A stretch of 63,831 bases of DNA, filler included, from Lenisia limosa (lineage: Eukaryota; Protista; Breviatea): the NCBI GenBank assembly GCA_001655205.1. It is 15 parts of 15 records of this genome, joined end to end, with 100 filler letters (N's around TTAATTAATTAA, not from the genome) between each part and the next. Parts side by side here need not be neighbours in the genome. Positions count along the whole stretch, not along the records: positions 1 to 7,254 come from LPNZ01010793.1; positions 7,355 to 10,233 come from LPNZ01009123.1; positions 10,334 to 22,878 come from LPNZ01010185.1; positions 22,979 to 25,901 come from LPNZ01008430.1; positions 26,002 to 27,407 come from LPNZ01003720.1; positions 27,508 to 31,409 come from LPNZ01006605.1; positions 31,510 to 33,058 come from LPNZ01004891.1; positions 33,159 to 41,451 come from LPNZ01003679.1; 7 more parts are not named here. One strand, given 5' to 3'. A program made the translations under genes and the position numbers. Each line of letters begins with the position of its first letter. The first letter of the stretch is position 1. Positions 3,906 through 57,849 of this stretch are shown piece after piece. The notes below the pieces were generated by a model. It had not been told where the DNA came from. It searched no databases and saw nothing but the letters and a program-made list of their open reading frames with translations.

Positions 3906-6900
3906 ATGTCCCGTTTAGCCTCTCTTGCCGCTGGTGTTGGACCTGTCACCCCCTCAATGACTCCCTCCGTCTCACCCAGTGTCCAGAGAAGAGGCAACAC
4001 TGCTTCTCCTAACCCTGCCATCACACAAACCAAGAACACCCAGGTTTGTCGGGTTTCCCCTTTCTGCTCTTCCAGATGAATTGTCTTCATGTCGCTTAGC
4101 TCGAGCATTGGGCCACTCTCGATGTTGAAAACGAGGCTGGTGTCCTTAAGCTGACCGGGCTTATCTGCACAATCGGTTTGAGGAGACTATACTGCCGATC
4201 TGATGATGATTTCATTTGTGCTCATCTTAACTAAATATGAAACGCGGAGGAATTAGGGGATATGGGAGGGTTCTTTTCTTTGCTCTTCTGAAACACCCAC
4301 TATAAATATGAAAGTAGTGAGTGCTCCAGTAGTCCTCTCCTGACATTATGTATCCATTATTCTGTAGAATGTTCGCGAACGTTTTTTTTTTGTTATTCTC
4401 TCTTTTTTGCTGTGTGTACAGAAGTGCAAATGATTGGGTGAATAATATTATGCTCTAATCCAATATCTCTTATACGCGTGATGGTGTGGACGTCTTCGGC
4501 CAGATACAACCTTGTTTTATTGTTCATCTCTGCTTCTTGTGCTCATGAATTGATTTTTTTTGCTCTTTTGAAACTAGGACAGATGGGTGCGCATACCTGT
4601 CGATTGGTCATATTCAGCGATACATTTTGCCTCTATCCTTTGCTTTCACCGCTGGAACCCATAAGTCATTTCTTTTACAGTGCCATCTTCTTCACATTCT
4701 TTACCGATGTATATTATACTATATGGCTAAGGTCACAAAAAGGCTGTATTTCTCTATAAATCTTCGATAGTTATCGATATTTTCCAGGACTTTTTGTGAC
4801 CTTAGGAAGCCCTAATTATTTGTATATCATGCTTGTATGAACTAGAACTTCAAACGTCTAATTTCAATATTTGTCAATTAATCTGAAATCCTAATAGTAA
4901 CCTCCATAGGCCCCAAGACAAACAAACCAGATGTTCTTGAGGACTTGGTCAGTGCTGGCATGAACATTGCCCGACTCAACTGCTCACATGGCACTTATGA
5001 CGTGGGGGGGTATATATGATATACAGTATATGCATGTTTATAAAATTTAGTACCATAAAAAAATTTAGTGTCACAACCAACATTTATTATCATAACCAAC
5101 TTTTAGAATCATTATAACTAGGACTTCCCTACGGTCCTAAAAAGACTGAATTTCTCAATCATACCAATTTAGTACCATAACAATTTAGTATCATAACAAT
5201 TTAGTATCATAACAATTTAGTATCATAGCAATTTAGTATCATAACAATTTAGTTTCATAACAATTTAGTATCAGAACAATTTATTTTACCAATTTAGTAT
5301 CAGAACAATTTAGATTAACAATTTTGTATCAGAACATACTAAATTTAGTATCATAACGATTTAGTATCATGGTTCTGTCATCAAGCACGTGAGAGAAGCC
5401 TCCGAGAAGTCCGGCAAANNNNNNNNNNNNNNNNNNNNNNNNNNNNNNNNNNNNNNNNNNNNNNNNNNNNNNNNNNNNNNNNNNNNAGTATATCATATGC
5501 ATATCTTATCATATGTGATCTGTACAGCGGGTGTTTTAAACAAATCACATGGCAATAATGGGAGAAAGAGGGGTGTTATTCCTAATTTTTGCCCCTTACC
5601 CCCCCTGCAGAAGGACTGACCTGGGATTTGTTTGTTTTGTTGTTATTAACCCTTGTGTGTTGTCAGCCAACAGAGTTAATTTTGGACTTTTTATTGTTTC
5701 ATAAATTTACCAATTTTTCTCCACCTCTCTCTTCCTACCCCCCACTAATTCGACCCCTTCAGCATTGCTCTCGATACCAAGGGCCCCGAAATTAGAACTG
5801 GACTCACCCCTGATGGTGGAGAGGTGGGGGGTACTATGTTATTCGGGGTTCCCTACGGTCCCAAAGACCGAGTATCTTGACTAATCCTTGATCAATATCG
5901 ATATTTTGCCGGGTTTTTGGGGTATAATTACCGCATGACTGACTGCCTTGATCGGTATAATTGTCATGTACTGTCAATAGAAACTAATAAATAGTTTCAT
6001 CCTGACCGATTCAGTTCCATTTGGAGTGTAATGCCCCCGTCACTATCACTACGGATGAAGCGTTCAAAGAGGTAGGATGGGGGGGGGGGGTAAAATACTG
6101 TGACTTGAAATGGGCACTTGTATTTTTTGCAAAAAAGATACTTACCTTTTATAGAAGTGCTGTGCTGAAGTCATTTACGTGGATTACACCAATCTGCCTA
6201 ATGTTATTAATGTGGGTTTTCAGCTGCTCTATTTAATTTCTACTCCGTTATTCTTTTTGGTTTCGGGCTTTTTATTGCATAAACAGTCTCAACACTGCTG
6301 CAGAAACGACTGGTGGGCGTTGTTTGTTTTGTTGCCCAAATCACAGAGTTGATTTTGGGTTTTATTTGTTTTATAAATTTTCCATTCCTTTTGTTTGATA
6401 CCCCCTCACCCTGGGCAGGTTGGCGCCCACATTTACATCGATGATGGGCTGGTGCAACTCAAGGTAGAAAGCGTCAACGGCAAGAACGTATACTGCAAAA
6501 CCCTCAACGCAGGTTTGCTTTTGCCTTCCTTTTATGGAAGGTTGGGGTTCAGCTCACTTTCCTTTTTTGGAAGGATATATTTTTTTAAAAGTTAACATAT
6601 TAGGAACTTTGTCTTCTCGCAAGGGTGTTAATCTCCCCGGTGTTGATGTCGATCTGCCAGCAGTTTCGGAGAAGGATAAGAACGATCTCAAGTGGGGGGG
6701 GGGGGTATAGCTAGGGCTTCACTTCTGTTCAAAAAAAGACTGAATTTATCGATAAATCGTCGAAAACTATCGATATTTTCTCGGTCTTTTTTGAACGTAA
6801 GTGAAGCCCTAGGTATAGCGAGTGGTAAGAAAATGATGAAAATCATCAGAAATTTTGAGTAATTTGAAAAACACAATATTCATAAATTGTCCAATATACT

Positions 6901-7006
6901 CACGATTCTTCATCGAAATTCCCTTTATTCACCCCCACAGGTTCGGAGCTGATCAAGGTGTCGATGTCATTTTCGCTTCCTTTATTAGAAGAGCCCAGGA
7001 TGTCAC
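3906..7006 (+). CDS. PK: Pyruvate kinase, N-terminal half (10 exons; truncated by the contig end at 7254)
   Basis: Exons 3906-4043, 4100-4175, 4910-5001, 5365-gap, 5763-5823, 6015-6071, 6155-6211, 6419-6512, 6604-6691, 6941-7006, with GT-AG boundaries and consistent phases where sequenced. Hallmark motifs [62 protein letters not shown]. Confidence 0.97.
4440..4520 (-). repeat. Dispersed repeat family D (core gtatctggccgaagccgtccacaccatcacgc); other copies near 1060, 2905, 8510-8615, 22755-22830, 29720-29790, 54495-54560
   Basis: The same core, often with flank agagatattggatta, seen by eye at 7 or more non-coding positions on both strands. Confidence 0.7.
5165..5370 (+). repeat. 16-bp tandem array (aatttagtatcataac) made of the PK intron-3 acceptor plus the first 6 nt of exon 4
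   Basis: About 11 TTTAG copies between 5168 and 5364; the last is the in-frame acceptor (tttag|tat cat ggt = YHG). Confidence 0.9.
5605..5762 (+). repeat. Family A splice-site-anchored repeat at the 3' end of a PK intron
   Basis: ctgggatttgtttgttttgttgttattaacccttgtgtgttgtcagccaacagagtt...tttcataaattt...ccccc...cag|exon. Confidence 0.85.
6295..6418 (+). repeat. Family A repeat (internally deleted) ending at a PK acceptor
   Basis: ctgcagaaacgactgg...cacagagttgattttggg...ttataaattttcc...ccccctcaccctgggcag|. Confidence 0.75.
6712..6811. mobile_element. hAT-like MITE (family C), full 100-bp copy in a PK intron
   Basis: TIRs tagggcttcactt / aagtgaagcccta; perfect 8-bp TSD ggtatagc at 6704-6711 and 6812-6819. 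Confidence 0.92.
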
Positions 7007-7147
7007 GTGAGCTTCTGGTGGTGTACCTTGACTTTTTTTTGATATGATATGAGATTGGCTTTCATTGAATATCATATAGTATATTATCCATATATTATAG
7101 TGAAAGCTGCGAACATCAAAACTCCCGGGCAGCTTGAATATAGGGCT

Positions 7148-7254
7148 GGGATGCGGGGCTGCAGGCTTTGGTTGTTTTGTTGTTAGCAACCCTCGTGTAT
7201 TGACAGCCAACAGAGTTGATTTGGGCTTTTGTGTTTTATAAATAATCCTTTTAC
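7148..7254 (+). repeat. Family A repeat including its 5' end (gggatgcggggctgcag), cut by the contig end
   Basis: Matches the A consensus (ctcgtgtattgacagccaacagagttgatttgggc). Confidence 0.8.
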
Positions 7255-7354
7255 NNNNNNNNNNNNNNNNNNNNNNNNNNNNNNNNNNNNNNNNNNNNTT
7301 AATTAATTAANNNNNNNNNNNNNNNNNNNNNNNNNNNNNNNNNNNNNNNNNNNN
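7255..7354. other. Artificial contig linker N44-TTAATTAATTAA-N44. The other 13: 10234-10333, 22879-22978, 25902-26001, 27408-27507, 31410-31509, 33059-33158, 41452-41551, 43260-43359, 45667-45766, 50207-50306, 53789-53888, 61049-61148, 62353-62452
   Basis: All 14 are exactly 100 bp with a 12-mer carrying stops in all six frames; genes (PK, PMM, dynein) are cut at them and do not continue across. Confidence 0.97.
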
Positions 7355-10233
7355 TTTGGACAGGAGGCGGCATGGGTGAAGGTGAGGGTGTGGAGGCTAC
7401 GGGGCTCTGAGGGGGCTCGATAGCAACTGGGGGGTTGATATTAGAGCTTCACTATCGGTACAAACTAGAAAATATTGATATTTATCCAGGATTAATCAGT
7501 CTTAATTAAGAACTGAAGGGGAAGCTTGAGTTAATAATACGTATGGAAATTAATGAAGCAAAAAAAAACTTTGTTGTACTTTCTACAGAATACTGCTATG
7601 CTTGAAACAAGCAGGATGTTGTCATGTGCTTGTAAAGAGCAGGCGCCTACCTTCGTCCAGGTCCTCCTGGTAAGTGGCGGGTGTGGATGGCGTGAGGCGC
7701 AGACGTGTGTCGCGTCGTTGCTTACGTGATCGGACAGGAGATGTTCGGCGCGGCGGCGTGAGGGAGTAGAGCTCACGTGACACTGACCTGGAGGGGGGGG
7801 GGTGTAAAATGTGGAAAATTTATGAAACAAAAAATGCCTAAAAACAACTGTTGGCTGACAACACACGAGGGTAGATAACAACAAAAAAAATAAAACAAAG
7901 CCCAGGCCCGTCACTTCTGCAGCACCGCATCCCATCACTCGCGTATTGAGTAACAATGGAAAATATTTGTGAAACCAAATACCCAGAATCATTGTAATTC
8001 CCAATGCTTAAGAGCTTCTGCCCCCCCCCCCNNNNNNNNNNNNNNNNNNNNNNNNNNNNNNNNNNNNNNNNNNNNNNNNNNNNNNNNNNNNNNNNNNNNN
8101 NNNNNNGGTGATGGTGATAGCGACCTTGAAGGAGAACGCTCTGTCGAACTTGTGTGTCAAGATAAATGCAGAAAAACACAGGACAAACGGGCTCAATGCA
8201 ATTGATTGAAAAATTATTCAGATACTTTAATTTCAAATTTTGTCGATCAATATCTTCAGTCCTTGGATAACTTGATAAATGTTGGATAAATGCAGGATAA
8301 AAACAGAATACTAGATATAGGATATAAAACAGGAAACTAGATATAGGATAATACAGGATACTAGGTGTTGGATAAATATAGGATAGATGCAGGATACACA
8401 TTTGACATGAGTTAGTATACCGCAACTATAATTTCTAACTCGTACTTTACATCCATAATATGGTATGATAAACTCAGAAATGTTGGGATGAGTGCTGCAG
8501 GATTACTATGAAGAGGATAGCTGAAGCCATCCACACCATCACGCCCGTAGGTGATATTGAATTATATCTAGCAATGAGAAAAAAAAAAAGGTTTTATCTG
8601 GCCGAAGCCGTCCACACCATCATTATTTGCCTAACAGCTCTGTGCACACATTTTTCTGATGAAGGCTAGTATTGGTATATTTAAGGTTTCACTCAGTTCG
8701 AAAAAAAAAATGGTAAACTATCGAAGTACTGTATGTCGAGGATTTATCGAGAAATTCAGTAATTTTCTGGAGGGAAGCACTCGGTATATTATTTGAACTG
8801 AGAACAGCTCCCCAGATTCCTACCTTTGGACTCGGGGAAGCGGAGAGGAGGACTTTTCGTTGGGGTGGGGGGAGGAGCTGGGAAGTTAATGGTGATGAAG
8901 GGGTGACGTGGAGGTGACTACTCATACATATATAGCGATAAGTCCTGACACAGATGTTTAGCTTTATCTTTAGTCAATCGTGTCAGGACTTATCGCGGTC
9001 ATTGTAAAGGTAAATAGGAATCATCTTGTATAATATATGTAATAGATTGCTATCATCCCCCCCCCCCCCNNNNNNNNNNNNNNNNNNNNNNNNNNNNNNN
9101 NNNNNNNNNNNNNNNNNNNNNNNNNNNNNNNNNNNNNNNNNNNNNNNNNNNNNNNNNNNNNNNNNNNNNNNNNNNNNNNNNNNNNNNNNNNNNNNNTTAA
9201 AAAACAGAAGCTATAAGTTCCATTTGTAAGGAAGATAAATCATCATTATTCACTAAGTGCGAGCACTACAAAGAAAAGAAGAATCAGATGTTGCTGCGTT
9301 AATGAAGAATTCAAGAAAAGTTTAAGCTAGAGAATTATGAACGTGAAGCTATCAAGACAGCAACAGACCTTCTTTGATGGGGCTGCGGGGGGGAGGCTTC
9401 TGATTGAGGGGAGTGACTTGCATTGTGAGGTGGGGGCGATTGTGACNNNNNNNNNNNNNNNNNNNNNNNNNNNNNNNNNNNNNNNNNNNNNNNNNNNNNN
9501 NNNNNNNNNNNNNNNNNNNNNNNNNNNNNNNNNNNNNNNNNNNNNNNNNNNNNNNNNNNNNNNNNNNNNNNNNNNNNNNNNNNNNNNNNNNNNNNNNTGT
9601 TGTTATTGGTTGCCCAACTAAGTATTTATAATGCTCCGTGCAATTAATTTTTTGAAGAAATTAATTGACAAAATTTGAAATGAAAGTGTCTCAAATGGCT
9701 TCTCGTTACAATATTTCTCATTTCAACTTTTGCAATTATTTTTTCAATTAATTTCTACGGAGTCTAAGTATTTATCCACAGCATCCCCATACTGCTGAAT
9801 TGGAGAAGGCGATTTGCGAGTAATCTGGAAAAGTAAGCGTANNNNNNNNNNNNNNNNNNNNNNNNNNNNNNNNNNNNNNNNNNNNNNNNNNNNNNNNNNN
9901 NNNNNNNNNNNNNNNAAAAAAAAGTAAACAAAAGCAAATGAGACTTATTGGAACACTTGGATTGGTATGATTGAGGCTTCACCCCGATCCAGAATACGAC
10001 TGAATGTCTCGATGAATTGTCGATAAATACCGATTTTTACCAGTCTTTATTCGAACAGCCCAAGATATGTAGTTTTCCCTACGGTCCGAAAAAGACCGTT
10101 AAAACATCGATATTAATCGCGAGATCGTACGGAAGCCCTAATAATATGTCTATTCATAGTCTAACCTGCAGTGGTTCGACCTTGTTTGCTGCCCTCTCCT
10201 CAAGTTCCCGCATCAAATCATCCTCGGAATCTG
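7355..10233 (-). CDS. Multi-exon hypothetical Ser/Pro/Arg-rich protein (internal fragment)
   Basis: Exons DSEDDLMRELEERAANKVEPLQ, ITRKSPSPIQQYGDAVDKYL, VTPSSPLTSQLLPPPQRKVLLSASPSPK, SVSRELYSLTPPRRTSPVRSRKQRRDTRLRLTPSTPATYQEDLDE|VAIEPPQSPVASTPSPSPMPPPVQ, with C-rich acceptors on the minus strand. Confidence 0.55.
7788..7933 (-). repeat. Family A repeat, near full length, ending at a minus-strand acceptor
   Basis: Reverse complement: gggatgcggtgctgcagaagtgacgggcctgggctttg...gtcagccaacag...tttcataaattttccacattttacaccccccccctccag|. Confidence 0.88.
8935..9005. mobile_element. Small MITE related to family E, with a perfect 17-bp inverted repeat
   Basis: gcgataagtcctgacac (8935-8951) and gtgtcaggacttatcgc (8980-8996); right end ggtcattg|ta resembles the family E terminus. 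Confidence 0.65.
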
Positions 10234-10482: not shown

Positions 10483-13400
10483 CATCCCATTACTCACACT
10501 CCAGACGAGCCTCCCCGAGCCTATTTTGCCGCTGATCGCGACGCACATTATTGATAATGTTATGTCAACGGATGTGGTGCGCGGGGGGGGGGGGTCATTT
10601 GCAAACCACACAANNNNNNNNNNNNNNNNNNNNNNNNNNNNNNNNNNNNNNNNNNNNNNNNNNNNNNNNNNNNNNNNNNNNNNNNNNNNNNNNNNNNNNN
10701 NNNNNNNNNNNNNNNNNNNNNNNNNNNNNNNNNNNNNNNNNNNNNNNNNNNNNNNNNNNNNNNNNNNNNNNNNNNNNNNNNNNNNNNNNNNNNNNNNNNN
10801 NNNNNNNNNNNNNNNNNNNNNNNNNNNNNNGCTGTTGTGATAAGGACCTAGCCAAGGGCCACATGAACATATTTGAAACTGTTGGGAGGGGGGTATGCAT
10901 ACAGTGATCAGGATAAGTCTTGATCTATTTTCCTTTGGAAATCAGATGTGAATGTAAATGTCATATATTATATCATACAGTATACTTTTATATGTACATA
11001 TTGATATGTATATGACATGAAGCATAAATATATATATCATATATTATATTCATATAGCTATGTAGGATGAAATATCATACATATATTATAGTAGTATTAT
11101 GGAAAATTAATGAAACGAAATGGGGGTAATAATCCATACTGAAGGATGTCTAACCTGTGAGGGGCTTATTATCAACCTCAGAAGCATCAAAAAAGTTTCT
11201 GACCGCTCTTTAGTGTCTCTCTGAGGACCAAGATGAGCCCGCTCAGGTTGCAGTTCAGGTAAGAGGGAACCTTTTTTTGTGGAAATTTTAAGTTGTAGGC
11301 CTTTTTACTAATGAAGCGCAAAGATAGCTTACCGTAATAGTTTTAAAACACTTAAAAAAAAACCATATTTGGTAGTCTTTACTGAATTAGGCAATGTATG
11401 ATCTTCTAAGCATCTTTGGTCTTGGGATTATCAGTGCCGAAAATGAAGACGAAGATGAGGGTTGGGAGGGAGGGCGTAACTCTTCATTGAGCCCTTTTTA
11501 TATATTATCGTCAAAGTCAATGGTTAATATTGTATGTTTTTTTCTCTCACAAATTTCCGTTTTACATCCGCCACAGAAAAAGTAGGCATTGAAATCCTCA
11601 GTGGTTTACTCGACCTTTTGCGTGACGATGACCCCGTGATTCAACGCATTGCTGCCGCGGGGGCAGCTAAGATGAGTCTTCACAACATCATTACCGTTCC
11701 CATGGTGAGTGGAGGGGTGGATGGAAGTGACTTGTATGATGTGTACAGTGATCGGGATAAGTCTTGACTGATTTTTCTTGTGAAATCGAAAGAATCGAAT
11801 TTGCAGCTTTTCAAATGGATCAAAAACTAATTCAGCAATTTAATTAATCAATAGTCCTAGAATTTGCGCCATTGCGCCTTGGTTAACTACGTGGTTATTT
11901 TAATACAAGACCAAAAAGCCCAAACTGTTGAGAGCCTTAATAGAGTCTTTAATGAGCTTCGAGTGCTCAGAAATCTATCAAGTGTTTCTTGAGATGTGGA
12001 ATAATAGTATTAGTACTTGTCGAAATACATGAAGCGAATACTGTCAGGGTTTGTCTGCCAATAAGGCAGACAGTGTTGCCTGGTGGCCCCAGAGAAGATG
12101 GGATGATAGATTCAATAATAAGTAGAACCAGAAAATAACGATATCTTGAATTTGGATTTGAAAGAAGAACAAGTAGAGTTACTCATCCAATCTTGATTGC
12201 ACTTTTCTTCAAATTTTCCCTTGAGTGGCGAAAGTTGATATCTGTCTTCTAATAAAGTTGCAAAAGTAGTAGTCGGAAATGAGTTTGTTTGAGTTTAAAC
12301 ACGGTAGTATCCACTATTACGCTAATAACAATGGATAATAGTTTACAATATGTTCATCATCGAAATTTTATTGGGTTGAATAGTTTCCGTATTTGTTTTG
12401 TGTTCTTCAAGTTCACCAGTCTTCTTTAAATGATTGGCCTGGAGTGTTTTTTCAAATTAGTTAACAATTGTGTTGATATTATTTAGTTTCTATTATTGTT
12501 TTTTTTTGTTTTTTTTATTGTTTNNNNNNNNNNNNNNNNNNNNNNNNNNNNNNNNNNNNNNNNNNNNNNNNNNNNNNNNNNTTTTCCATTTTCACCCCCT
12601 CACCCAGATCAACTTGCACTTGCTGCGTGCGTATTGGGAGGAGGAAATGGACGAAGAGGTCCTTCAAATCATTTCAACGTTTTTCGATGTGAGGGGTCTA
12701 ACTAACTACATAATGAGTTGCGATGAGAATCCAAATTATCCAGCCCTATGCATACCGATCAATTGGGAATTCCTACCCTCCCCCCCCCCAANNNNNNNNN
12801 NNNNNNNNNNNNNNNNNNNNNNNNNNNNNNNNNNNNNNNNNNNNNNNNNNNNNNNNNNNNNNNNNNNNNNNNNNNNNNNNNNNNNNNNNNNNNNNNNNNN
12901 AACAGAATTTTGGGCTTCTTTTTTGTTTCATAAACTTTTCATTTTTAACGCGAATATTCTTCATCGAAATTTCCTTCGTTACACCCCCCCCCCCCTAGGC
13001 CTACGCAATGGATCGAACTCAGCGCCAGCTCTTAATGGCAGCTTCTCCCGTCTTCCTGCTAGAGAGGGAAATCAGAAGCAAGGTGGAGGGGGGGTGGGGG
13101 TGAGTTAGGAGTACTTGGGAAGGAATAAGCGAACAAATGGGAGGAGGGGGAGTAAAACGAAGGAAATTACAATGAAGAGTAAAAGTACTAATCACGAACC
13201 GAATAATCTGAAACTCCAAACAAACAAACACGAGACCAAAGCTAAAACTAGATAGAAGCCAGATGAAAATTACGCAAAACAAAAGCAGTGGGGGAGGGGG
13301 GGATTAACAATATACTGTATGTACAGTATATATTTTAACAATGGAAGAGTTAAAGAAAGATAAAGGGAAAGAGAAGAAAGAAGATGGGTGGTATCCCCTT

Positions 13401-16400
13401 AAAGGAGGTATATATGATAGTAAGTTAGTATTAAGGAGCGGGATAGTATTAATAATATACGACTTTGCCTCAATAAAAGGTGTTAAATGAGGATAAATAA
13501 ACTAAATAAACTAAATAGGCTAAATAAACTTATTTTGGGGGATTTATGAATTTTTATATCGAAATAGTTTCCAACCCTCAGCGGCCAAGAACCGGATATC
13601 GTAGGAGTAGTTTCAGAGTAATTACAGTCATCCGTCTTCCTGCTGGAGAGCGATATTGAAATATTGTGGAAGATGGGGCTAATTAGGAAGGTGTACTTAC
13701 CATATTAGGAAGGTTTACGTGTGTTCAAATGGCTACTTGGATTGGCCCAGAGCCCCACTCCTGCTGACCAGAAAAACCGTGAGACTCAAAGTTNNNNNNN
13801 NNNNNNNNNNNNNNNNNNNNNNNNNNNNNNNNNNNNNNNNNNNNNNNNNNNNNNNNNNNNNNNNGAACGTGGCGCTTCTGACCTTAACAAGGTCCTTGGC
13901 CTTGACCATCAAGGGCTTCCCGTCCTTCATCTCGCCCATGTCCAAGGTGCGCTCATTTGGTGCTGATCTAGTCACTATGACAAATGGTAATTTGTTAAAG
14001 TCGGGGGCACATATTTGATTGAAAAATCCATACACTTTGTTTGTGACCATCTTGAATTAGTCTCCTTAAAGATACTTGGCATATGTTGGTCCGGGATAGA
14101 TTGAATCATTGAGAAAAGAAATACAATATTCAATTTTTCAGGCTTATGATTTATCCCCCCAAAAGGCAATTATTTTCCCTTATTATCTACTGGCCTGGGC
14201 TTTGTTTGTTTTGTTATTTTTAACCCTCTTGTGTTATCAGCCAACAGAATTGATTTGGGCTTTTTTTTGTTTCATAAATTGTCTAACCCCCCTCCCCCCC
14301 AGCTCTGCCCCTCCCTCNNNNNNNNNNNNNNNNNNNNNNNNNNNNNNNNNNNNNNNNNNNNNNNNNNNNNNNNNNNNNNNNNNNNNNNNNNNNNNNNNNN
14401 NNNNNNNNNNNNTTCCGGAACTACCAAATTGAAGACGTGGGGGGGGGGTGAAATTAGTTAATTTATGAAACTAAAAAAAGCAATGATGAAGATAAATCAT
14501 CATTATATCTTCTTCAATTGGAGAGGAGTGAAATTGGAGGTAAACAGCATGATAGGGATAAAAGAACGATAAGGGGGTAGGTAGGAAATGTGTGATTAGT
14601 GTGGCTATTGAGAGAGGGGTTGGTGATACTAGCTAGCATGGGGGGTAAAGGCGTAAGCGAATGCAAGGAGAGGATTGGGGGTTCACAGTAGTACATTTTT
14701 GCAGATCAGATGGGATGAACAGGTCAAGCTTCTCCTGGTTATTTGCAAATGTTACTCTCTTTAGGGCTCAAAAGGCACTCAAAGACCTCTCCAATCGCCT
14801 TCAGGTTGGGGGTGTTTTCGGGTGATTTGCACCGCATTATCCCCTCCTCCTTCAGATTATTTGGTTCGTGATTAGTACGTTTACGCCAACATTCTTCATC
14901 GAAATTCCTTCGTTTTACCCCCTTCAATATCCTTCTCATCATCAATCATACAAGCTTTATTGCAAAAACGAATCATTTTCCGATTTACTATGGGGGAAAA
15001 AAGTAACCATGTTCAGAAGTACTGTGATACATTCGAAGACATGGTGAAGGAGAAGGAGGAAGAAAGGAAGAAGGAACGTGAAGAGAGGAAGAACAGGCCA
15101 AATGAAAAAAAGATCGCATTGGCAAGACAGGAGGCAGCGTTAAAGGAACTTGAAGATGCTATGAAGGGGTTGAAGAAGGGTGATGAGGGGGAGAAAGATG
15201 AAGAGAAAGAAGAGACAGAAGAAAAGAAAGAAGTGGAGAAGGAGGAGAAAGGTAAAGAGAAAGATGAAAAGAAAGAAAAGAAAGAAGAAGAGATAGAAGA
15301 GAAGGAAGAAGAAAAGAAGGAAGAAGAAAAGGAAGAGAAGGAAGAAGAAAAGAAGGAAGAAGAAAAGGAAGAGAAGGAAGAAGAAAAGAAAGAAGAGAGG
15401 GAAGAAAAGGAAGAAGAAGAAGATGATGAGGATTCCATTCCCGTTTTGAAAATGGATGACTTAGACTCATACGAGTTAACTGAAGTAAGAAAGAGGTACT
15501 AATAATACTGCACATTATTATCAACTCTCTTGTTTTTCAAGCCAGCAAGTTGATTTTGGCAATTTTGTCATTATTTTTCCAATGTTTCACCCCTCTCCCC
15601 CTCAGAATGAAATCGGCTCTGTCAAGCTTCATGGAGACGTGCTATTATCAGAGAAGAACCGAGAGAAGGAGCACGAAAAAGCCGTGAAAAAGCAGGCCAA
15701 AAAGGAGGCTAAGGAGAAGGCTGCAAGGAAGACCAAAGGCAAGCCAATTAAGAAGCCCCCGCAAAAGGTGGCGAAGAAGGTTGGAGGAAGGGTGGTTGCA
15801 CACTATGTTTTGTTGTGATTTTGGGCTTTTTTTGTTACAGAAATTTTCCCGCTGTACCCAAATGGAAAAACATGTATGTTTGTTAAAGCTGTGTATTTGA
15901 CCATGTTATAAGTTCTTAGTATTTCGATACAAGTTGTGGAAGGAAGGCAGACGAGGGAGTTGTGAAAGGAAGGCAGAGGAGAGTGTTGTGAAAGGAAGGC
16001 AGATTAGAGAGTTGTGAAAGGAATGGAGATATGACCCAGTCTAAACATGGCATACACTTATCGATTCGAATAGGCACCAATCCAAGATATTTTTTTTAAA
16101 TTGTTTACATATGAAATTATTTGTATTGTTTTGTTTTAATAGTAGCTTATTTGTTTCATTTGTTTATTGTTTAGATTTATATATACTATATATATTGTTT
16201 GTTTTATAATTGATTTCAGGGCGAGGAAGGCTCCAAAGAGCCAGTCGGCGAAACTGAACCGGAAGAGGTGAGTCATCAGCTGGACTGAAACGGGGCTTTA
16301 TTTGGGTTTTTTCCCTTGATGATGTGTTCGACCTGATCCGATATACAATATATCATAGACGGCTATGGCCAATTGCAATCAATATCCCTAATATATATTC

Positions 16401-17809: not shown

Positions 17810-20533
17810 CTTAAACGTCAACGCAACGTCACATTCTTTGCGACGGAAACAGTGGGGTCAAGCAAAGGAGCCAAACATCTCAGGAAATATTGGTACGTAA
17901 TCAATGTCAACCCTCAACGTTTTTCAACGTTTTTCAACACATCTTTTGAAATAAACCATTATTTTGGAGTATCTGGTTGAAAACCGTTCACCTCATTGTG
18001 TTAAGAGACATTGATGATAGTATCATGTTAATTCACCTATTTCCCCAACTCCGTGCACACAGCTTTCAGTGTACTTCCCCGTTTTTTTTTTTTTTTTNNN
18101 NNNNNNNNNNNNNNNNNNNNNNNNNNNNNNNNNNNNNNNNNNNNNNNNNNNNNNNNNNNNNNNNNNNNNNNNNNNNNNNNNNNNNNNNNNNNNNNNNNNN
18201 NNNNNNNNNNNNNNNNNNNNTCCAAGTTCATAATGTGTTGTAAAGCTAAAACAGTATTGTCTTGTTTTTGCGCGCTATTGAATATGTCATTCTGGGGGGG
18301 AGGGGTGATTCAACTTTGTAACGAGCTTAACTTAATCCATACTTATCTCCATTCTCATTTTTACTTCTGCTTCGCGTTTTCTGTTTCGTCCCAATGATGA
18401 CTTTCTCTGCCATTCCCCTACACTTCAACACCTTCATCCTGATCAAAGACCCTTCCCTCCCCATCGCAGCCCATCAAGTATAATCCCAAGCCTCCATCAA
18501 TACCCGCAATATAACACTCTAGCCAACAGAGTTGATTTTGGTGACGTCAATTCCCAATTTTATATCTATTTGGCTTTTGTTTTGTTTAATACACATTCCA
18601 ATTTCACACCTCAGGCTCCGTAAATGCCCTACCCAAAGAAGCAGGTGTCAGCAGTAATAAAGGGGCATGCCCCTGAGCTGACGTTTTCTAATCAAGCTTC
18701 CTCTTTGGTGGGCGGGGGTATTTTTACTATTTTATGGAGGGGTATTTGGTGGTGGGATAAGTCCATTTAGACATCTGGTTTATATAGGTTGGGCTTCACT
18801 TCGGTTTGAAAAGTCCAGAAAGATCTCGATAGTTTTAGATCTTTCTAGACTTTTTCAAACCGAAGTGAAGCTAGATTTTAGAGGCTTTTTCAAGAAATCA
18901 GTCTTTTTTCGAACCGAAGTGAAACTATATATAGGGCTTCCCTACGATCCCAAAAAAGACTGAATTACTCGATAAATCCTCGATAAATATCGATATTTCG
19001 GACCGCAAGAGGCCCTAAGAATATAACACCCCAGGTCCATTTATACATCAAAACCTTCTGGCGTGACGTGGCACAAGAGGCCAACCTTCTCACTGATGCC
19101 GCCCACGGCCCGGCCTATCCAAGGTGGGATATATGAGGGTATTATGTAGCGGATACATGGGGGGTATTGTTGGTTATTGGGAATAGCCACATTAAAGCAG
19201 AGTTTCGAATGTGAAAGTTGTCTTGGATATCCGAAGCACGCTATTCTTTTCGCGAATTGACAATCACTGCAAATAATGGTGTATATTGAGGACACTAGTG
19301 ACTGTATTTTTGGTATTTGCACAAGACTTTCAGAGGTTCATTTTGTCCTGGAAAATGGATAAGTTTTTCAACGTAGGAACCAATCAGCACTACATTCAGC
19401 TCCCCTATCTCTCTCTAAAAGATACAACAGCCTCTATCGTGTATGTATAAACTGCACTATGACCTTTTGATGGAAAGCTCTGATGAACTGACAGTTTTAA
19501 ATAGGAAAGCTGTCTGAAGCATTGCGCGTCATAATGAACTTGATTTACGCCACTTTTGCCTCTTTGCTCTTTTCTCAAAATCGACTTAAGAGTCATTATT
19601 GAGTTATTATCAATACATATTGATTAACATTCATAAATCGCTCTAAGGAAGGCCTATTCTTCGATTATTCATCTGTTATCCGAGACAACTTCCCATTTGA
19701 AACCCTGCTTTAATAGCCATATTATTAGTCACACTGCAGGGTATCACGGGTGCACTTTCGTGAGGCAGCCGAGACCGTGCTGAAACGCTATAAGGACAGA
19801 GGCGACTCTGCCCTCGATGAACTCACCGCCGCCATACCAGGTGGGGGGGGCGGTAATGACAGTGATGATGATGGTGATGATGATGGTGATGGTGGTGATG
19901 GCGGTAATGATGATGGTAACGATGGGGGTAATGATGATGATGATGATGATGATGGTGGTGATGATGGTGATGATGATGGGTGATGATGGTGGTGATGGTG
20001 ATGGTGATGATGATATTGATGATGGTGATGATGATAATGATGATGATGGTGATGGTGATGGTGGTAATGATGATGGTGATGATGATGGTGGTGATAATGG
20101 TGGTGTTGGTGGTGATTGTGGTGATGGCGATGGCGTATTTGGTAGTGGGAAGTGGTTCTGCAAGGATTTTCTGATAGAAATTCCAACCTCATGTTTCACA
20201 GATTCTTTCATATAATGAAGAGTGGATAAAGGCCTCTTCGGCTCATAAAATGGGATGAATTATTTAGAGCGTCGGTTGGATAAAACAAAGGACGAAAATT
20301 AAGGCCAATTATTGCAACTGCAATTCACAAATACTTCCTCATGATTAGACAACCCCCCATGTTTCTTGATCTATGATCTAACTCTTTCAGCCCCAGCAGT
20401 GGAAGACGAAAGCGATTCAGAGTCGGAAGGCTCGGCGTCGGAATCGGAAGGAGTAAGTACTGATAACGCCACTTCCGCTTCCGACGATTCCGATGAGGAA
20501 ATGTGGGAGGGGGCATTTGTAAGGAAGGAGTGA
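17810..20533 (+). CDS. Multi-exon hypothetical protein with an acidic Ser-rich C-terminus (the exons may belong to more than one gene)
   Basis: Exons LKRQRNVTFFATETVGSSKGAKHLRKYW, VHLYIKTFWRDVAQEANLLTDAAHGPAYP, VSRVHFREAAETVLKRYKDRGDSALDELTAAIP|APAVEDESDSESEGSASESE...FVRKE*. Confidence 0.45.
18791..18873. mobile_element. Family C MITE variant forming a near-perfect hairpin of about 34 bp; further copies follow to about 19018
   Basis: gcttcacttcggtttgaaaagtccagaaagatct - 10-nt loop - agatctttctagactttttcaaaccgaagtgaagc. Confidence 0.8.
19852..20135. repeat. Intronic (GAT/GGT)n microsatellite; similar tracts at 52340-52510 and 60497-60572
   Basis: Begins just after the donor gtgggggggg at 19841. 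Confidence 0.9.
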
Positions 20534-22633: not shown

Positions 22634-22978
22634 CTGTGAGTACTAGGACTCCGTGCAAGTATTTGTTTTTGAGGAAATAATTGATAAAATATTTATTAAA
22701 CTGTCTGAAAATTTTCAAAAATATAAAGTAAATGCTCAATTACGTGTTTTCAGACATATATAGCAATGAGAATAAAAATAAAGATGTATCTGGCCAAAGC
22801 CGTCCGCACCATCACGCTTACAAGAGATATTGGATTATAGTATATTTTATATAATATGCATATCATATGTAGTTTGCANNNNNNNNNNNNNNNNNNNNNN
22901 NNNNNNNNNNNNNNNNNNNNNNTTAATTAATTAANNNNNNNNNNNNNNNNNNNNNNNNNNNNNNNNNNNNNNNNNNNN

Positions 22979-39314: not shown

Positions 39315-41052
39315 ATGACTCTAACACCCCCATCTGCCCCCAGCCTGAGACCATCACGTTCATTTTCAAATCTTCCCTTGTCAGATGGAATTGTTTTGCC
39401 ACCTAGCACAGCACGACCTAGACCTAAGTCAGCGCATCCCGCTGGAGACTGGAGAAACTGTATTCTAAACACTGCTAGTACTCGCAATAGACCCGCGTCA
39501 CCTCCGGAGTTTTCTCTGTTGTCCATTAAAGAGTCTGAGCCAAAATGGATGCCCCCTCCAGTTCGCTACGCCTTTCTGCAATCCAATGACGAGAATGATG
39601 GTGATAACCGCGACAAGGGCCCCACTGCCCTTTGCTTTCTCGAGGAGGACACGATCATATATCCAGGAGACCAGCCGGAACCTGAAAAACGCCCATTTTC
39701 CCGTTCTAATACGTCCTCTGATGAGGAGTCTGACGGAGACAACGAGATTACTGGATTATCCTTCGACCTTCCCGTGTAAGTTGGAGCTAAGTTATGTATT
39801 AGTATGCTCGTGTATTGCTAGCCAACAGAGTTGATTTGATTTGGGCTTTGTTTATTTCATAAATTTTCCCTTTTTACTTTAGTACCTTTACGCCAATATT
39901 CTTCATCGAAAAATTCTTCGTTCTACCCCCCCCCCCNNNNNNNNNNNNNNNNNNNNNNNNNNNNNNNNNNNNNNNNNNNNNNNNNNNNNNNNNNNNNNNN
40001 NNNNNNNNNNNNNNNNNNNNNNNNNNNNNNNNNNNNNNNNNNNNNNNNNNNNNNNNNNNNNNNNNNNNNNNNNNNNNNNNNNNNNNNNNNNNNNNNNNNN
40101 NNNTCAGCCGAGCGCCTTTCGTGCCATCAGGTGACAACTCCACCATGTTTGGGGGGGGGGGGTTAAATTGGAAAATTGATGAAACATAATGGGGCAAAGC
40201 AGGTCAGTTGCCATATAGGGAGTAGAAATACACCAGTTTTAGGCTGATATTGTCATCACTTGGTTCGCAAAAGACTGTAAATATAGTTCAATTGTATAAT
40301 TATGTTCTCATAGCTTTGGTTGGATGGAAATATCTGAACAGGTTTCTCTCCCCGGATATACCTTCAACAGCCCATGATACTTCGCTGTATATTTTGTTGT
40401 TTTTGTTTCAAATTTCCTTCCCNNNNNNNNNNNNNNNNNNNNNNNNNNNNNNNNNNNNNNNNNNNNNNNNNNNNNNNNNNNNNNNNNNNNNNNNNNNNNN
40501 NNNNNNNNNNNNNNNNNNNNNNNNNNNNNNNNNNNNNNNNNNNNNNNNNNNNNNNNNNNNNNNNNNNNNNNNNNNNNNNNNNNNNNNNNNNNNNNNNNNN
40601 NNNNNNNNNNNNNNNNNNNNNNNNNNNNNNNNNNNNNNNNNNNNNNNGTCCTCCCTGAGTTCCAGCGGTTCTCTTTCGCCAGGGCTTTTCAGCTGCAATC
40701 GCTCGAGTCCGAGGAATTCAGTCCTACTGTTTGGGGGGAGGGGATATGTCCTTGGTACGTTTCAACTTGGGCTCTGTGCAAATAATTGAAAAAATATTTG
40801 CAAAATTTGAAGTGTGATACATTTTAATGTAAACTCAATTTGACACTTTAATTTCAAAATTTGTCAATCATTTTCTTCAAAAAAAAAAATTGCACGAAGT
40901 CGTAATTTCAACATATTGTGCAACCCAAAGTGAAACTGAAGGTATTCACCGCAAAAAAATTGAGACCCATTTTCTCCATTCACCTTAACCAACAGCAGCA
41001 ATATTCACCAGCAATATTCAACACCACTAGCAGTATTCACCTCCAATCTTAA
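39315..41052 (+). CDS. Hypothetical Pro/Ser-rich, acidic protein; large first exon 39315-about 39774, later exons partly in gaps
   Basis: 154-aa ORF with natural composition (MTLTPPSAPSLRPSRSFSNLPL...DEESDGDNEITGLSFDLP); downstream exon VLPEFQRFSFARAFQLQSLESEEFSPT. Confidence 0.55.
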
Positions 41053-41568: not shown

Positions 41569-43096
41569 CTCGTCTTTTGCGTTTGTACAAAAGCCGGGCG
41601 GTGAGGCGGAACTGATAAGTCACCTAGTGTAAGTGGGGCTCTTAATTTACTGGAGAAAGGGGGGGATGGGTGTTTTTGTTGAGGGTTTCTCAAATGCTTG
41701 TGTAAATGTGTAAATGGAGGTGGGAATGTTAAATCGTTTTGTTTAAATGTAAGACTCTTAATTTCTTTTGATATGGTGGAAACAGCAATAGATTGAAGGT
41801 ATTTACGTGTGGTGGGTGGCTTTCTTCAGTCCAAGTATATTAGGATGCTTATGGAGAATTTATTGAGAAATTCAGACTTTTTTTTTTGACTATAGCGAGT
41901 TTCTAATATTATTTTTTAGATTACCTTCAGCGCCAGTAGAAGACTCTCATGCCACAAACAAGGTAAATAAGGGTTACTTAAGCAAAAAACATGGGATCAC
42001 CGCATAATTGAGTAATTCCTTCACATATTGTCCCTGACCCATTGGGAATTAATTCAAAACCAGCTATATTCATCTTGACACAGATGGAATATGATATTAA
42101 TAGCGTTCAAAATCTAGTTATAGTTTCTCTGCTCATTCATTTCAGCTTTACGTGGACTCTCAGAATGCGGTGCTTCAATCGGAGATTGACGTAAGCATAA
42201 TCAATATCAGGCTTGTTGTTTATTTTGAATAATATGTAGCTAATAATAATAATGTAATATCTGATACTAGTATATCATATTACTACGTTCTATTGACTTA
42301 GTATATTGTAATGTAGGATGAATAATATGTGACTAAGTTCCAAGATCTACCCCTTTTTTCACCCACTGAACCCCCTCCAGTCCATGAAATCCGAATTGAA
42401 TATTATTGCTGGCCGTTTCTACGTACATGTACAGAAAGTTGCTGTAGGGGGAGGGGACTCGCTGGTGATTTCAATTTTGTGTTTTTTTTTGTATTTCCCT
42501 AACATGGGCTTTTTTATTGTTGTTTTCAAACTGATGCCGACATAATTGATTTTGGGGTTTTTCAATATTTTATTGTTTACGCCAATAGCTTTTCCATCAA
42601 AATTTCCTTCGTTTACTTGGGCTTTTTTGTTTCATAAATTTTCCAATTTTACTNNNNNNNNNNNNNNNNNNNNNNNNNNNNNNNNNNNNNNNNNNNNNNN
42701 NNNNNNNNNNNNNNNNNNNNNNNNNNNNNNNNNNNNNNNNNNNNNNNNNNNNAGGGTTATACCCGGCACTACTTGACAAATACGAAATTACACGTTTGTG
42801 GCTATGTTTAAATAAGATATTACACGTTTGTGGCTGTGTTGATATACGAAATTTATAACCTGAAAGGTTCTACCCATAACACGAGATCATATTATCGAAC
42901 ATACCATCCCAAAGAAGTGGCAGTGCATAATACCGGAGTTATTCAAAGTTGGAGCATCACTGTCAGTTCCAAAAAGACTGAATTCTAGATATATTCTCGA
43001 CAATATTGATAGTTTATCCATCTTTTGAGCTCAAAAATGACCTGCCTCAGGAGGAACTGCCAGCCCCGTGTGTTCTCCACAACCGAACAGAAACTG
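41569..43096 (+). CDS. Multi-exon hypothetical protein (fragment)
   Basis: SSFAFVQKPGGEAELISHL, LPSAPVEDSHATNK|LYVDSQNAVLQSEID|SMKSELNIIAGRFY, EELPAPCVLHNRTET, with canonical junctions. Confidence 0.45.
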
Positions 43097-43825: not shown

Positions 43826-45405
43826 ACAACAGGGAATCCCAAGTCGATGCGCCGTAGTGTGTCATTCAAGCCTTGGTGTTTGTCAATGTTCCCTATCGGA
43901 TCAAGTGAATATGTAGGCTGGTTATAATTTAGGTCAAACAATATCAGATGAATCAACAATGCCCCCCCCCCCCTTTTGGAATCAACTCTCAATGCATTTT
44001 TATGTGATCATCAAGACAAGATTAACATACAAATTCATAGAAACAATAAATGGAATCTAGGGGGTGACTTAGACAGACACGGCGAAAATGGTCTCATCAG
44101 CTGAAGCGTGATAGACATTGACGCGTTGCGGAATTGTCGTAGCATCGGGTCGGAAGAGGCACGTGCTGGGTGATGTGAAAGCAATTTACGTAAACAAAAA
44201 AAAAATCGCTTTCTTTATACTATTTCATATGATCTGTAGAGGTGAGATGCTATTAAAGCGGGTCTCCACCAGATTCACAGGAAACAACGTTTAGAGATAA
44301 AACCATACACCTTCCCCTGTACTGGGCTTTGTTTGTTTGACATCCCTTGTGTGTTGTCAGCCAACAGAGTTGCTTTTTTTTGTTTCATAAATTTTCCAAT
44401 TTTNNNNNNNNNNNNNNNNNNNNNNNNNNNNNNNNNNNNNNNNNNNNNNNNNNNNNNNNNNNNNNNNNNNNNNNNNNNNNNNNNNNNNNNNNNNNNNNNN
44501 NNNNNNNNNNNNNNNNNNNNNNNNNNNNNNNNNNNNNNNNNCCTTACCCTCCGAGATTAGTTCAGCAGCCTGCGTAAAAAGGGAAGCCCGTGTATTATTG
44601 GAAATTATGGGAATTTTTGGGACATATTGTACAGGTCCATTCAGACAATCTATTTCAATTTTTGTAGAAATGAAAGAATGGCTTCTACATAAGTAGGGCT
44701 TACCTACGATCCGAAAAAGTTATCGAGAATGGGTCATCTTTTCCCAGTTATATATATTACTATCCCAATGATCCAAAAAGATATTCCTCCAAANNNNNNN
44801 NNNNNNNNNNNNNNNNNNNNNNNNNNNNNNNNNNNNNNNNNNNNNNNNNNNNNNNNNNNNNNNNNNNNNNNNNNNNNNNNNNNNNNNNNNNNNNNNNNNN
44901 NNNNNNNNNNNNNNNNNNNNNNNNNNNGTTTTTTTTCTCCTGAATTTTATGAATTCATTGACCAATAAAAGATGCCTATTTATTATGATTTTCTAAAAAA
45001 AGGCAACTTATTACGCAATTTAAACTTGTTTTAGAAGCTAGAAAAGGAACAAGATACAGATTCATAAGTCTGGGAGCTTTCAAACAATTGCTTCAAAAAT
45101 ACAAATTGAATATATTCATTCACGCTAGAAATTCTCTATTGTTGCCTTTCCAAAGTCGAAGCGCTCATTCAACTCAAAAGATGGACAGTGATCGTATGGC
45201 CTTCCCCTACATTACACACATATTCATGATAATTGAGAGATTCAGAACTTTTTTGGACAGTAGGGAGGCCCTATTCCCCAAACATCACACTCATCTTCAC
45301 TGTTGATACTCCCCACCTACAGCACATTTATCTTCAGGGTTGGTGTACCCTCCATATTTCGAAAAGTCAGTATTGATAGAATACTGGTCATTGCAGTAGT
45401 TCGTG
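43826..45405 (-). CDS. Probable exons of an unidentified gene
   Basis: TNYCNDQYSINTDFSKYGGYTNPEDKCA, AAELISE, PTYSLDPIGNIDKHQGLNDTLRRIDLGFP, bounded by AG/GT; linkage uncertain. Confidence 0.3.
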
Positions 45406-55444: not shown

Positions 55445-55486
<42 letters not shown>

Positions 55487-55913: not shown

Positions 55914-57849
55914 CAGTTTAGATTGAAGACTACATCTTTGCTCTGAGTTGGACTCTGACGTGGTTCAGTCACAACATTGAGGCTCTTGAGGATTGTGCAA
56001 GGGTCTTTGATGTGTTTCTGACTTCGCACCCGCTCTATGTCTTTTATTTCTCTGCTGCAGTTGGGGGGGGGGGGGTTGAAAATAACAAAAAAATAAATAT
56101 CCAAATCAACTCTGTTGGGGCTTGACTATGGTTTTAATTAGACCCTAGTTTTAGGTTCATCGAAACACCAGTCTGTTGGGAGTGTGTTATCGACTCTTTG
56201 TTGTTCCTCTTTCCCTTCTCATTTGTTACAGCTTTTCAACTTTTCAACAAATCTTAAGACTGGTCTTGCTGTTGTTTTTCTCTCTTTTTCACTGACTCTT
56301 TATCTCTTTATCTCATTGTCTCTGTTTTGTTATGTCTTATTTTCTTCACCATCAAGCTCATGATCCTAAATCAAGGAAGCATTCTGAGCAAAGAACCTGA
56401 ATTCTCCCTGCTTCACCAGCATCTCACTCATCTTCCCCAGCGTAAGGTCGCATTTAATAATTTGCAAATGTTCAAGTTCTCACTGTCTCAACTTTTCTTA
56501 ATTCGTTTTTCAATCTACTGTCAATAGTTGTTTTCTATTCTAACCGCCTAGACATTAATATTGAAGAGTGCTTTGTCCTGTCGGAACAGCTGTTTGAACG
56601 ATATCCCCCTCGATCACTTTTGAAGAAACTTCCAGAAGAAATGTAGGCAAACGATAGCATCCACCGGTTCATTTTGTATGATCCTAAGGTGGTCGTAAAT
56701 ATAGGTGGACCAACAAAACCGCGCCCACTAACAAAACCGCGCCCACTAACATAACCGCGCCCACTAACATAACCGCGCCCACTTTTTGAAAAACTATGTT
56801 TCTTTGGACAAAAAGTTTCGCTTAAACGCCTTTATACAAAGCATAATCAGTTGAANNNNNNNNNNNNNNNNNNNNNNNNNNNNNNNNNNNNNNNNAAGTG
56901 ATCAAAGAAGCAAGCAGGTAATAGACCAATTCCACCACTCCCGACTTTGAATACGCTTGAAAGAAAAATCTAAGCGAGATCGAGTGTACATAAAAGAGAA
57001 AAGTTCGGTTCAGTTCAGTTCAGTGAATTTGTTGGATTATTTTGTCCTCAGATAATTTTCTACAAAACAACCTTTGATTGAATAAAAATGGACAATTATA
57101 GAGAGATATCGCTGTTTTAAGGGAAAATAATTCAAAAAGAAGGGCCGATGTTCACGGTCAGGTTAGTGTTCACGGTCAGGTGACGTGCCTTATATATATA
57201 TTATTGGATTAATGCAACAAAAGACAAACGCACAGTCGAATTAGTAATCCTCATCGGTCTACGGATTCTTGGCAACATTGAGCCATCAAGCTCAAGTCTG
57301 GCCTCTGAAATACTGACAGGGGTAGTGTTACTGTGCTAATAGGGATAGACAAACAGGTGACTGACGAGGGATCGGATCAGGCATTGATACTCTCAGGAAC
57401 TGTCTCATATTGTTCAACATGACTGGTAACCAAGGATAGGACTGAAGCTCAAGGATGAGGCCAAAGAGAAGGGGGCTGTGAGTCTAAAAAAAGTTAATAC
57501 AAATATGAAAGGGAAGGAATTTATTTTTCAAATGTTTTTGAAAAACCATCATCACCCCCATTACTCATTACTGTACGATATCCACACTTTCATGGAAACT
57601 GAATAGTTAAATGAACAAAAAGAAAGAAGTATAACCCTTACGACGTGAGGTGCAAGGTCGGGATTGTAGTCCTTTCGGTTCCACGATTTCCAAGTGACAG
57701 CCATGACCTCCTCAACCACGCACCACTGTAGCTTCACATAATACATCAATAACCGTTGTAGGGGGCAGGTACTACTTCGGAGGGGGCAGCCATGAGCTGA
57801 GGATGAGAATTACAACACAGAATAGAGGTAATCTAGTAAAAGGGGGCAT
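55914..57849 (-). CDS. Probable multi-exon gene with an N-terminal hydrophobic segment; exon chain not resolved
   Basis: MPPFTRLPLFCVVILILSSWLPL... at 57849; exon REIKDIERVRSQKHIKDPCTILKSLNVVTEPRQSPTQSKDVVFNLNW behind a family A acceptor at 56055. Confidence 0.3.
56712..56783. repeat. Tandem repeat, 18-bp unit aaca(a/t)aaccgcgcccact x4; related inverted unit at 62466-62502
   Basis: Read directly from the sequence. Confidence 0.9.

What the first reader, a model, noticed from the sequence alone, without database searches (positions are those of the whole stretch)
5605..56118. Family A: oligo(C)-tailed repeat docked against splice sites in unrelated genes
Seen: a repeat of about 140 bp (gggatgcgg.gctgcagaag.gactggcctgggctttgtttg..ttgttattaaccctcgtgtgttgtcagccaacagagttgatttgggcttttttgtttcataaattttccaatttt[a/c]C-run) occurs about 18 times by eye (5605, 6295, 7148, 7788, 12901, 14187, 15540, 18518, 24565, 26618, 34241, 37658, 39807, 42615, 44322, 56062, and inverted at 14437 and 40147). 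Where an exon is visible, the C-tail faces it: sense and ending at or near the acceptor AG in PK, CAP-G, dynein, VAMP7 and others, or inverted right after a donor GT. Copies share the C-tailed end and are truncated to different extents at the other end. Known: Introner elements (Micromonas, Zymoseptoria-type fungi and others) create families of sequence-similar introns, and 5'-truncated 3'-coterminal copies are typical of target-primed retroposition. Inference: a non-autonomous element that targets G/C tracts at splice sites (C-tail pairing with a G-run, analogous to polyA tails priming on T-rich targets) or that supplies a ready-made 3' splice site. I do not recognise this architecture from described elements.
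Basis: partly seen in the sequence, partly recalled or inferred. Interest (0 to 1): 0.82.

Follow-up and report, generated by a model that had tools for sequence, protein, structure and literature searches.

The report
C-run-targeted retroelement stubs at splice sites
A short, very abundant repeat in the breviate protist Lenisia limosa sits with one fixed end against the C- or G-runs beside splice sites; it is likely the stub of a retroelement that inserts at C-runs, as known Penelope-like elements of green algae do, and its last bases may stand in for the intron's branch point.

Summary
The repeat is real. All 18 listed copies and 3 more were recovered. They share a 3' end, are cut to different lengths at the 5' end, and are 85-98% like the consensus. 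A DNA run shows roughly 1000-fold depth over them. Docking holds in this window: 13 of 16 scorable copies end within 45 nt of the facing splice site (3.7 expected, P about 7e-8). Only one of those sites is RNA-confirmed. Eighteen copies are sense; three are inverted after a donor. It is not an introner. The C-run is probably target, not tail: a sister family (D) stacks at the same point, and one D insertion lies in a 17-bp duplication that already holds six C and the AG. The architecture is published: Chlamys Penelope-like elements target (C)n and leave intronic, 5'-truncated stubs (median 128 bp). No reverse transcriptase partner was found, so membership is unproven. Not explained by C-run targeting alone: 10 of 13 acceptor C-runs are occupied but only 4 of 24 donor G-runs. 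Likely a selection filter: the element's end mimics a branch point in sense and makes a cryptic donor in antisense. New variant of a known kind; interest 0.5.

The parts
5605..5719 (+). Family A, sense, pyruvate kinase intron; ends 43 nt before AG; C7 run on its 5' side
6296..6400 (+). Family A, sense, pyruvate kinase intron 6212-6418; 18 nt before AG
7148..7254 (+). Family A, near full length, sense in pyruvate kinase intron; scaffold ends behind it
7803..7945 (-). Family A, longest copy; C10 then AG at 7788 (acceptor from signal only)
12901..12947 (+). Family A 3' part, directly followed by family D, CAP-G intron
14189..14286 (+). Family A, sense, 16 nt before AG 14302 (CAP-G by frame)
14449..14481 (-). 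Short family A end, inverted 12 nt after donor 14437 (weak copy; strand by frame)
15515..15591 (+). Degenerate family A filling 64% of a 121-nt intron; 14 nt before AG
15817..15855 (+). Short family A end, sense, not docked (364 nt from AG)
18520..18607 (+). Degenerate family A; 7 nt before AG, no C-run
24565..24698 (+). Degenerate family A in dynein heavy chain intron; 32 nt before AG
26636..26731 (-). Family A, sense to a minus-strand PMP-repeat gene; 18 nt before AG
28152..28186 (+). Weak family A piece, 20 nt before a likely AG
   Evidence: E 0.025
34254..34340 (-). Family A, then C-tract, then family D, then C-tract and AG, in a Sushi-repeat gene
37662..37783 (-). Family A, near full length, in VAMP7 intron; 22 nt before the RNA-confirmed AG; C12 on its 5' side
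37640..38050 (-). RNA-confirmed 411-nt GT-AG intron of VAMP7 that holds the copy
   Evidence: spliced product equals P0018
39807..39878 (+). Family A, followed by family D, C11 and a gap
40163..40210 (-). Family A end, probably inverted 16 nt after donor 40147 (gene strand not proven)
42503..42561 (+). Degenerate family A piece ahead of family D
42617..42653 (+). Family A end joined directly to the end of family D; gap follows
44318..44403 (+). Family A; gap follows
56076..56118 (-). Family A end, inverted 16 nt after donor 56060 of a TBC-domain gene
63269..63283 (+). Head of a family A copy running into a gap
6893..6932 (+). Family D before AG 6940 (pyruvate kinase)
12948..12983 (+). Family D between family A and C12-AG
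13152..13232 (-). Family D, inverted, about 70 nt after donor 13083
14851..14918 (+). Family D, sense, about 98 nt before the in-frame AG
25066..25115 (+). Family D with internal deletion; gap follows
25439..25519 (+). Family D inside a 17-bp duplication, dynein intron
25355..25371 (+). Upstream copy of the 17-bp duplication (T, six C, AG, 8 exon bases); second copy 25519-25535
34138..34236 (-). Family D between family A and the acceptor
39879..39925 (+). Family D joined to the end of family A
42566..42616 (+). Family D between two family A pieces

Best explanation
Family A is a high-copy, 3'-coterminal, 5'-truncated repeat of about 145 bp that abuts C-runs, and is likely a non-autonomous retroelement copied in by target-primed reverse transcription at (C)n tracts, as Chlamys Penelope-like elements are. 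Shown: the repeat, its shared end, the C-tract behind it, the docking, a second family (D) stacked at the same point in both orders, and one 17-bp duplication that contains the C-run. Inferred: an unseen partner nicks the G strand at the edge of the run and copies the RNA from its 3' end, often stopping early. The docking follows because these runs lie beside splice sites. Selection then filters by orientation (inferred): in sense, the end (TTTAC-like) would replace the displaced branch point and do little harm; in antisense, the same end reads G/GTAAAA just behind the true donor and would compete with it.
For: 3'-coterminal, 5'-truncated, no terminal inverted repeats, no poly(A). C-rich 3' flank in 10 of 18 copies against 2.5% background, P 3e-12; the MITE control has a C/G-rich flank in 3 of 25. 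Genome-wide, loose ends of 101 contigs behind A and 53 behind D read as C-runs. A and D join end to head with no C between at 12947, 39878 and 42616, so new inserts land at the 5' edge of the run. The 17-bp duplication holds six C on both sides, so that insert added none. Host donors carry G-runs without any repeat, 20 of 54. Precedent: Chlamys insertions were all intronic, median 128 bp, (C)n target (PMC9977147, passages; PMC8557442). The three docked antisense A ends all lack GTAAAA and are only 33-48 nt.
Against: No reverse transcriptase or GIY-YIG gene was found: none in 234 frames of the window scanned against Pfam, and no genome was held. No clear pseudo-LTR or tandem copy. C-runs at acceptors occur almost only with a repeat (10 of 14 against 3 of 39, P 1e-5), which also fits an element that brings its C's. 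Occupancy of 10 of 13 acceptor runs against 4 of 24 donor runs (P 8e-4) is not predicted by C-run targeting alone. Three copies start at the same ACGC, suggesting a discrete short unit, not the end of a long element. The clear duplication is one case and concerns D; A shows only an 8-nt candidate at 5605. A and D ends are no more alike than shuffles (P 0.41).
Confidence: 0.55

Rival explanations
1. The element carries its own oligo(C) tail, which pairs with short G-runs on the target strand, so the acceptor C-runs are insertion products.
For: Repeat-free acceptors are not enriched for C-runs (3 of 39, P 0.19), repeat-bearing ones are (10 of 14). Genome-wide consensus behind both families is a C-run.
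Against: The 17-bp duplication has the same six C on both sides. Flanks are mixed C/T/A tracts, and 18520 has no run. G-runs at donors exist without the repeat.
Confidence: 0.18
2. The element is steered to 3' splice sites as such (by transcription- or spliceosome-linked targeting), and C-runs only mark the subset it can prime on.
For: 18 of 21 copies are sense, P 0.0015, and acceptor runs are occupied far more than donor runs. 35 of 75 C/G runs of 6 or more lie away from annotated sites and gaps.
Against: Inverted copies dock at donors (56062 by Pfam; 14437 by frame). Selection explains the skew without new machinery. Gaps behind donor G-runs (e.g. 24095) may hide antisense copies.
Confidence: 0.1
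3. Copies spread by a DNA route: a rolling-circle element (Helitron/Replitron type) or repair synthesis primed by G-run microhomology at breaks.
For: No RNA-level feature found (no Rfam, tRNA or conserved fold). A possible fixed 5' start. Replitrons also give variable target duplications (PMC9977147, passage).
Against: No CTRR end or terminal hairpin, no terminal repeats (Helitron end motif recalled). Heavy 5' truncation is the retroelement pattern. Repair alone would copy many flanks, not two families at high copy (inference).
Confidence: 0.12
4. Introner: the element creates the introns it sits in.
For: Sequence-similar DNA next to splice sites of unrelated genes.
Against: The repeat fills 9-64% of 9 introns measured, and 14 intron remainders share no BLAST hit. 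It holds neither GT nor AG of the intron. 8 of 9 RNA-confirmed VAMP7 introns lack it.
Confidence: 0.03

Closest known systems
Chlamys Penelope-like elements, esp. Chlamys-9/Chlamys-N4_cRei of Chlamydomonas reinhardtii (PMC8557442; PMC9977147)
   Same: (C)n target, frequent 5' truncation, short intronic insertions (median 128 bp), non-autonomous families, no canonical hammerhead, target duplications hard to see.
   Different: Host is a breviate (Chlamys were reported from green algae, spike mosses and a slime mould). No pseudo-LTR or tandem copies seen, no partner found. The passages read say nothing on splice-site docking, orientation bias or a branch-point-like end.
L1/Alu target-primed insertion at T-runs (own knowledge)
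   Same: Insertion at the edge of a homopolymer run, 5' truncation, variable target duplication.
   Different: C/G instead of A/T; no poly(A); no tRNA- or 7SL-type head; bias is for the sense strand.
Introner elements (Micromonas, fungi; own knowledge)
   Same: Repeated sequence at splice sites of unrelated genes.
   Different: Here the repeat is a part of a pre-existing intron and supplies neither GT nor AG.

Membership tests
Chlamys/Naiad Penelope-like elements | Autonomous partner with N-terminal GIY-YIG, CxC motif and RT | not testable with these tools
   No genome held; no TE domain in 234 window frames
Chlamys/Naiad Penelope-like elements | Insertion at (C)n or (CA)n | tested here: met
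Chlamys/Naiad Penelope-like elements | Frequent 5' truncation, shared 3' end | tested here: met
Chlamys/Naiad Penelope-like elements | Pseudo-LTR / partial tandem or adjacent inverted copy | tested here: inconclusive
   None clear in 6 regions; only an 11-nt repeat at 26654/26722 and two A pieces split by D at 42503-42653; gaps hide several flanks
Chlamys/Naiad Penelope-like elements | No canonical hammerhead ribozyme | tested here: met
   No Rfam hit; core motif near 1 of 8 copies only
Chlamys/Naiad Penelope-like elements | Non-autonomous family shares its 3' end with an autonomous one | not testable with these tools
   Partner unknown; A versus D ends not significant, P 0.41
Introner | Element spans the whole intron and introns are alike end to end | tested here: not met
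Introner | Intron presence/absence between relatives | not testable with these tools
   No relative's genome found
tRNA/5S-derived SINE | Head derived from a Pol III RNA | tested here: not met
tRNA/5S-derived SINE | A-rich tail | tested here: not met
MITE / cut-and-paste transposon | Terminal inverted repeats | tested here: not met
   0 inverted pairs in 6 regions
Helitron | 3' hairpin and CTRR end (recalled) | tested here: not met
   Ends read TTT(T/C)AC; 3 of 4 A copies fold no better than shuffles

The most novel reading that the evidence does not exclude
Two retroelement families in a breviate have made splice signals their safe haven: they insert between branch point and C-tract, and their last bases have been shaped into a working branch point, so that a large share of this genome's long introns now splice on transposon-supplied branch points. 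At 25355-25535 the insertion even duplicated the acceptor, and the dynein frame suggests the new, element-served acceptor is the one used.
Probability: 0.25. Interest if true: 0.75.

Novelty: new variant of a known kind. Interest (0 to 1): 0.5.

Why it matters
It would extend (C)n-targeted retroposition, so far reported from green algae, spike mosses and a slime mould, to a breviate protist. It also offers a testable case of a mobile element that lands inside splice signals at high copy without breaking them. If the element end is the branch point, transposons would have rewritten 3' splice signals genome-wide without creating introns, a route distinct from introners. If not, it is an ordinary C-run-targeted repeat filtered by selection.

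Tried and rejected
Whole-genome search: no genome held. Relatives: 22-nt core, 0 matches in JGI metagenomes; 20-nt core, 1 match (L001), judged chance because nothing beyond the 20 nt aligns; 0 in viral contigs. Structured RNA: no Rfam hit at gathering, two chance-level hits (E 1.3, 1.7) on one copy, no tRNA; z-scores of 4 A copies +1.5, -3.2, +2.0, +0.9 and of 2 D copies +0.1, +0.2. Partner gene in the window: none; the 188-aa frame at 57913-58476 gave no Atlas hit. Target duplications: searched around 21 A and 9 D copies, one convincing. My first idea, that host acceptors generally carry C-runs, was rejected (3 of 39). Shared 3' signal of A and D: not significant. PDB searches did not confirm three short exons, so the CAP-G strand near 14437 and the dynein frame near 25527 rest on frame continuity. 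Homologue searches for two exons found nothing. RNA could be laid on one 7.9-kb stretch only; lack of RNA cover elsewhere is no evidence. Earlier scan notes: nothing on this genome; one search listed Penelope findings of other genomes that did not bear on this.
Full report
Source. The window is about 15 small scaffolds joined by a 100-bp artificial spacer, with many internal gaps at C/G runs and repeat copies. No whole genome was held. The nine introns that RNA run X2 skips in the VAMP7 gene give a spliced protein identical to P0018, whose source accession names Lenisia limosa, a breviate.

The repeat. A profile seeded on 10 copies found 24 hits at E<=1, 20 at E<0.03, against one hit (E 0.43) on the reversed window; seed copies match by construction. 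All 18 listed positions are covered, 14437 only weakly (E 0.47; BLAST E 6e-5). I count 21 copies, about 360 per Mb. The 18 copies compared are 85-98% identical to the consensus over aligned columns. They share the 3' end and differ at the 5' end; three begin at the same ACGC, giving a unit of about 145 bp. In DNA run X1, unique contigs mostly have depth 28-40 while bins over A reach 20,000-33,000, and 5187 records were laid on 7.9 kb. The tool warns this is no copy number; I read it only as order 1000. There are no terminal inverted repeats, Rfam or tRNA match or conserved fold.

Docking. Gene strands come from Pfam (PK, TBC, Sushi, Cnd3 weakly), PDB (dynein, E 0.003 and 0.04), PMP-repeat homologues, RNA and frame continuity. 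Five copies were dropped because a gap or scaffold end follows. Of 16, 13 end within 45 nt of the site they face (3.7 expected for uniform placement in their own introns, P 7e-8) and 11 within 25 nt (2.1 expected). In the 13 better supported cases it is 10 against 3.1 (P 9e-6). The tail is nearer its site than the head is to the other end in 15 of 16. Two more reach the acceptor through family D; one (15817) is not docked. Caveats: sites are hand-annotated, I looked for AG near copies, and only the VAMP7 site (22 nt) is RNA-confirmed. Eighteen copies are sense and three antisense (P 0.0015): 56062 (Pfam-supported), 14437 (frame) and 40147 (probable).

Not an introner. The repeat fills 9-64% of nine introns measured, and 14 intron remainders share no BLAST hit. 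Only 1 of 9 RNA-confirmed VAMP7 introns, the longest, holds it.

Tail or target. Ten of 18 visible 3' flanks have 8 or more C in 15 nt (background 2.5%); the MITE control shows a C/G-rich flank in 3 of 25. Genome-wide loose ends behind A (101 contigs, agreement 0.46) and behind D (53 contigs, 0.64) read as C-runs. A second family, D (9 copies, no control hits), uses the same spot: A-D at 12947 and 39878, D-A at 42616, with no C between, and A-C-tract-D at 34254. So inserts land at the 5' edge of the run. One D copy lies within an exact 17-bp direct repeat, 164 bp apart, made of T, six C, the AG and 8 exon bases; both sides have six C, so the run predates the insertion. This is one case, and 67 of the inserted bases are not D. 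Against the target view, repeat-free acceptors are not C-run rich (3 of 39, P 0.19) while repeat-bearing ones are (10 of 14); 3 acceptors beside gaps were set aside. Repeat-free donors do carry G-runs (20 of 54, P 5e-15).

The asymmetry. Ten of 13 acceptor C-runs hold A or D, but only 4 of 24 donor G-runs (P 8e-4); gaps behind some donor runs may hide copies. My inferred reading is selection. In sense, the end resembles this organism's branch-point-like pentamers, which mostly lie 6-16 nt before AG at repeat-free acceptors. By my reading of the table, the last such pentamer lies in the element's end in 9 of 14 docked acceptors, in the flank in 3, and is absent in 2; such pentamers are common by chance, so this is suggestive only. 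In antisense, the end would form a GTAAAA donor just behind the true one; all three docked antisense A ends lack it. At the duplicated dynein acceptor, the downstream AG gives an open frame and the upstream AG a stop, though a micro-exon reading is open in another frame; I prefer the first from recalled dynein sequence. No RNA was laid there.

Comparison with what is known. PMC9977147 (passages) reports that Chlamys-9 and non-autonomous Chlamys-N4 gave insertions of median 128 bp through 5' truncation, all intronic, matching their (C)n target. PMC8557442 (passages and sections 9 and 10) describes (C)n and (CA)n bias, hidden target duplications, pseudo-LTRs and lack of canonical hammerheads, in green algae, spike mosses and a slime mould. 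Its one held supplement names no breviate; others may exist unseen. Family A works like these elements. Membership is unproven: no partner was found in 234 window frames scanned against Pfam (mostly from the 336 of 544 frames passing a filter) and pseudo-LTRs are not evident. I found no paper on this repeat or on branch-point mimicry by such an element in searches (listings only; the library lacks most subscription journals). Introner, L1/Alu and Helitron features are from my own knowledge.

Verdict. Observation confirmed; interpretation partly supported. Best explanation: (C)n-targeted retroelement stubs filtered by splicing constraints (0.55). New variant of a known kind. Interest 0.5, or 0.75 if the element supplies working branch points (probability 0.25).

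Noticed in passing
window, 14 places, e.g. 7255-7354: Artificial 100-bp spacers (44 N, a 12-nt stop-in-all-frames linker, 44 N) join about 15 scaffolds; neighbours across them are not real.
   Followed up: yes
e.g. 2537-2636, 6712-6812, 35509-35609: Family B: about 100-bp palindromic MITE-like repeat, 25 copies by BLAST, often starting at TA; depth over its bin about 32,000 in run X1.
   Followed up: partly
4426-4527, 8564-8623, 22753-22844, 29728-29813, 54466-54555: Family C: about 90-bp intronic repeat, 5 copies in both orientations.
   Followed up: no
58 hand-annotated donors: The commonest donor is GTGGG (16 of 58, against GTAAG 9), and 20 of 54 repeat-free donors are followed by a G-run of 4 or more: an unusual 5' splice-site signal.
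   Followed up: partly
14303-14436 and 39937-40146: Exons flanked by a sense copy upstream and an inverted copy downstream; these could pair across the exon (untested).
   Followed up: no
26446-26617 (-): Exon like bacterial PMP/beta-helix repeat proteins; possible lateral origin, untested.
   Followed up: partly
57300-59600: Intron-poor region with several open frames and no Pfam or Atlas match.
   Followed up: partly
11560-11576, 25805-25822, 6875-6892: Very short ends resembling A or D before acceptors that I scored as repeat-free or D-only; the true share of acceptors touched may be higher.
   Followed up: no
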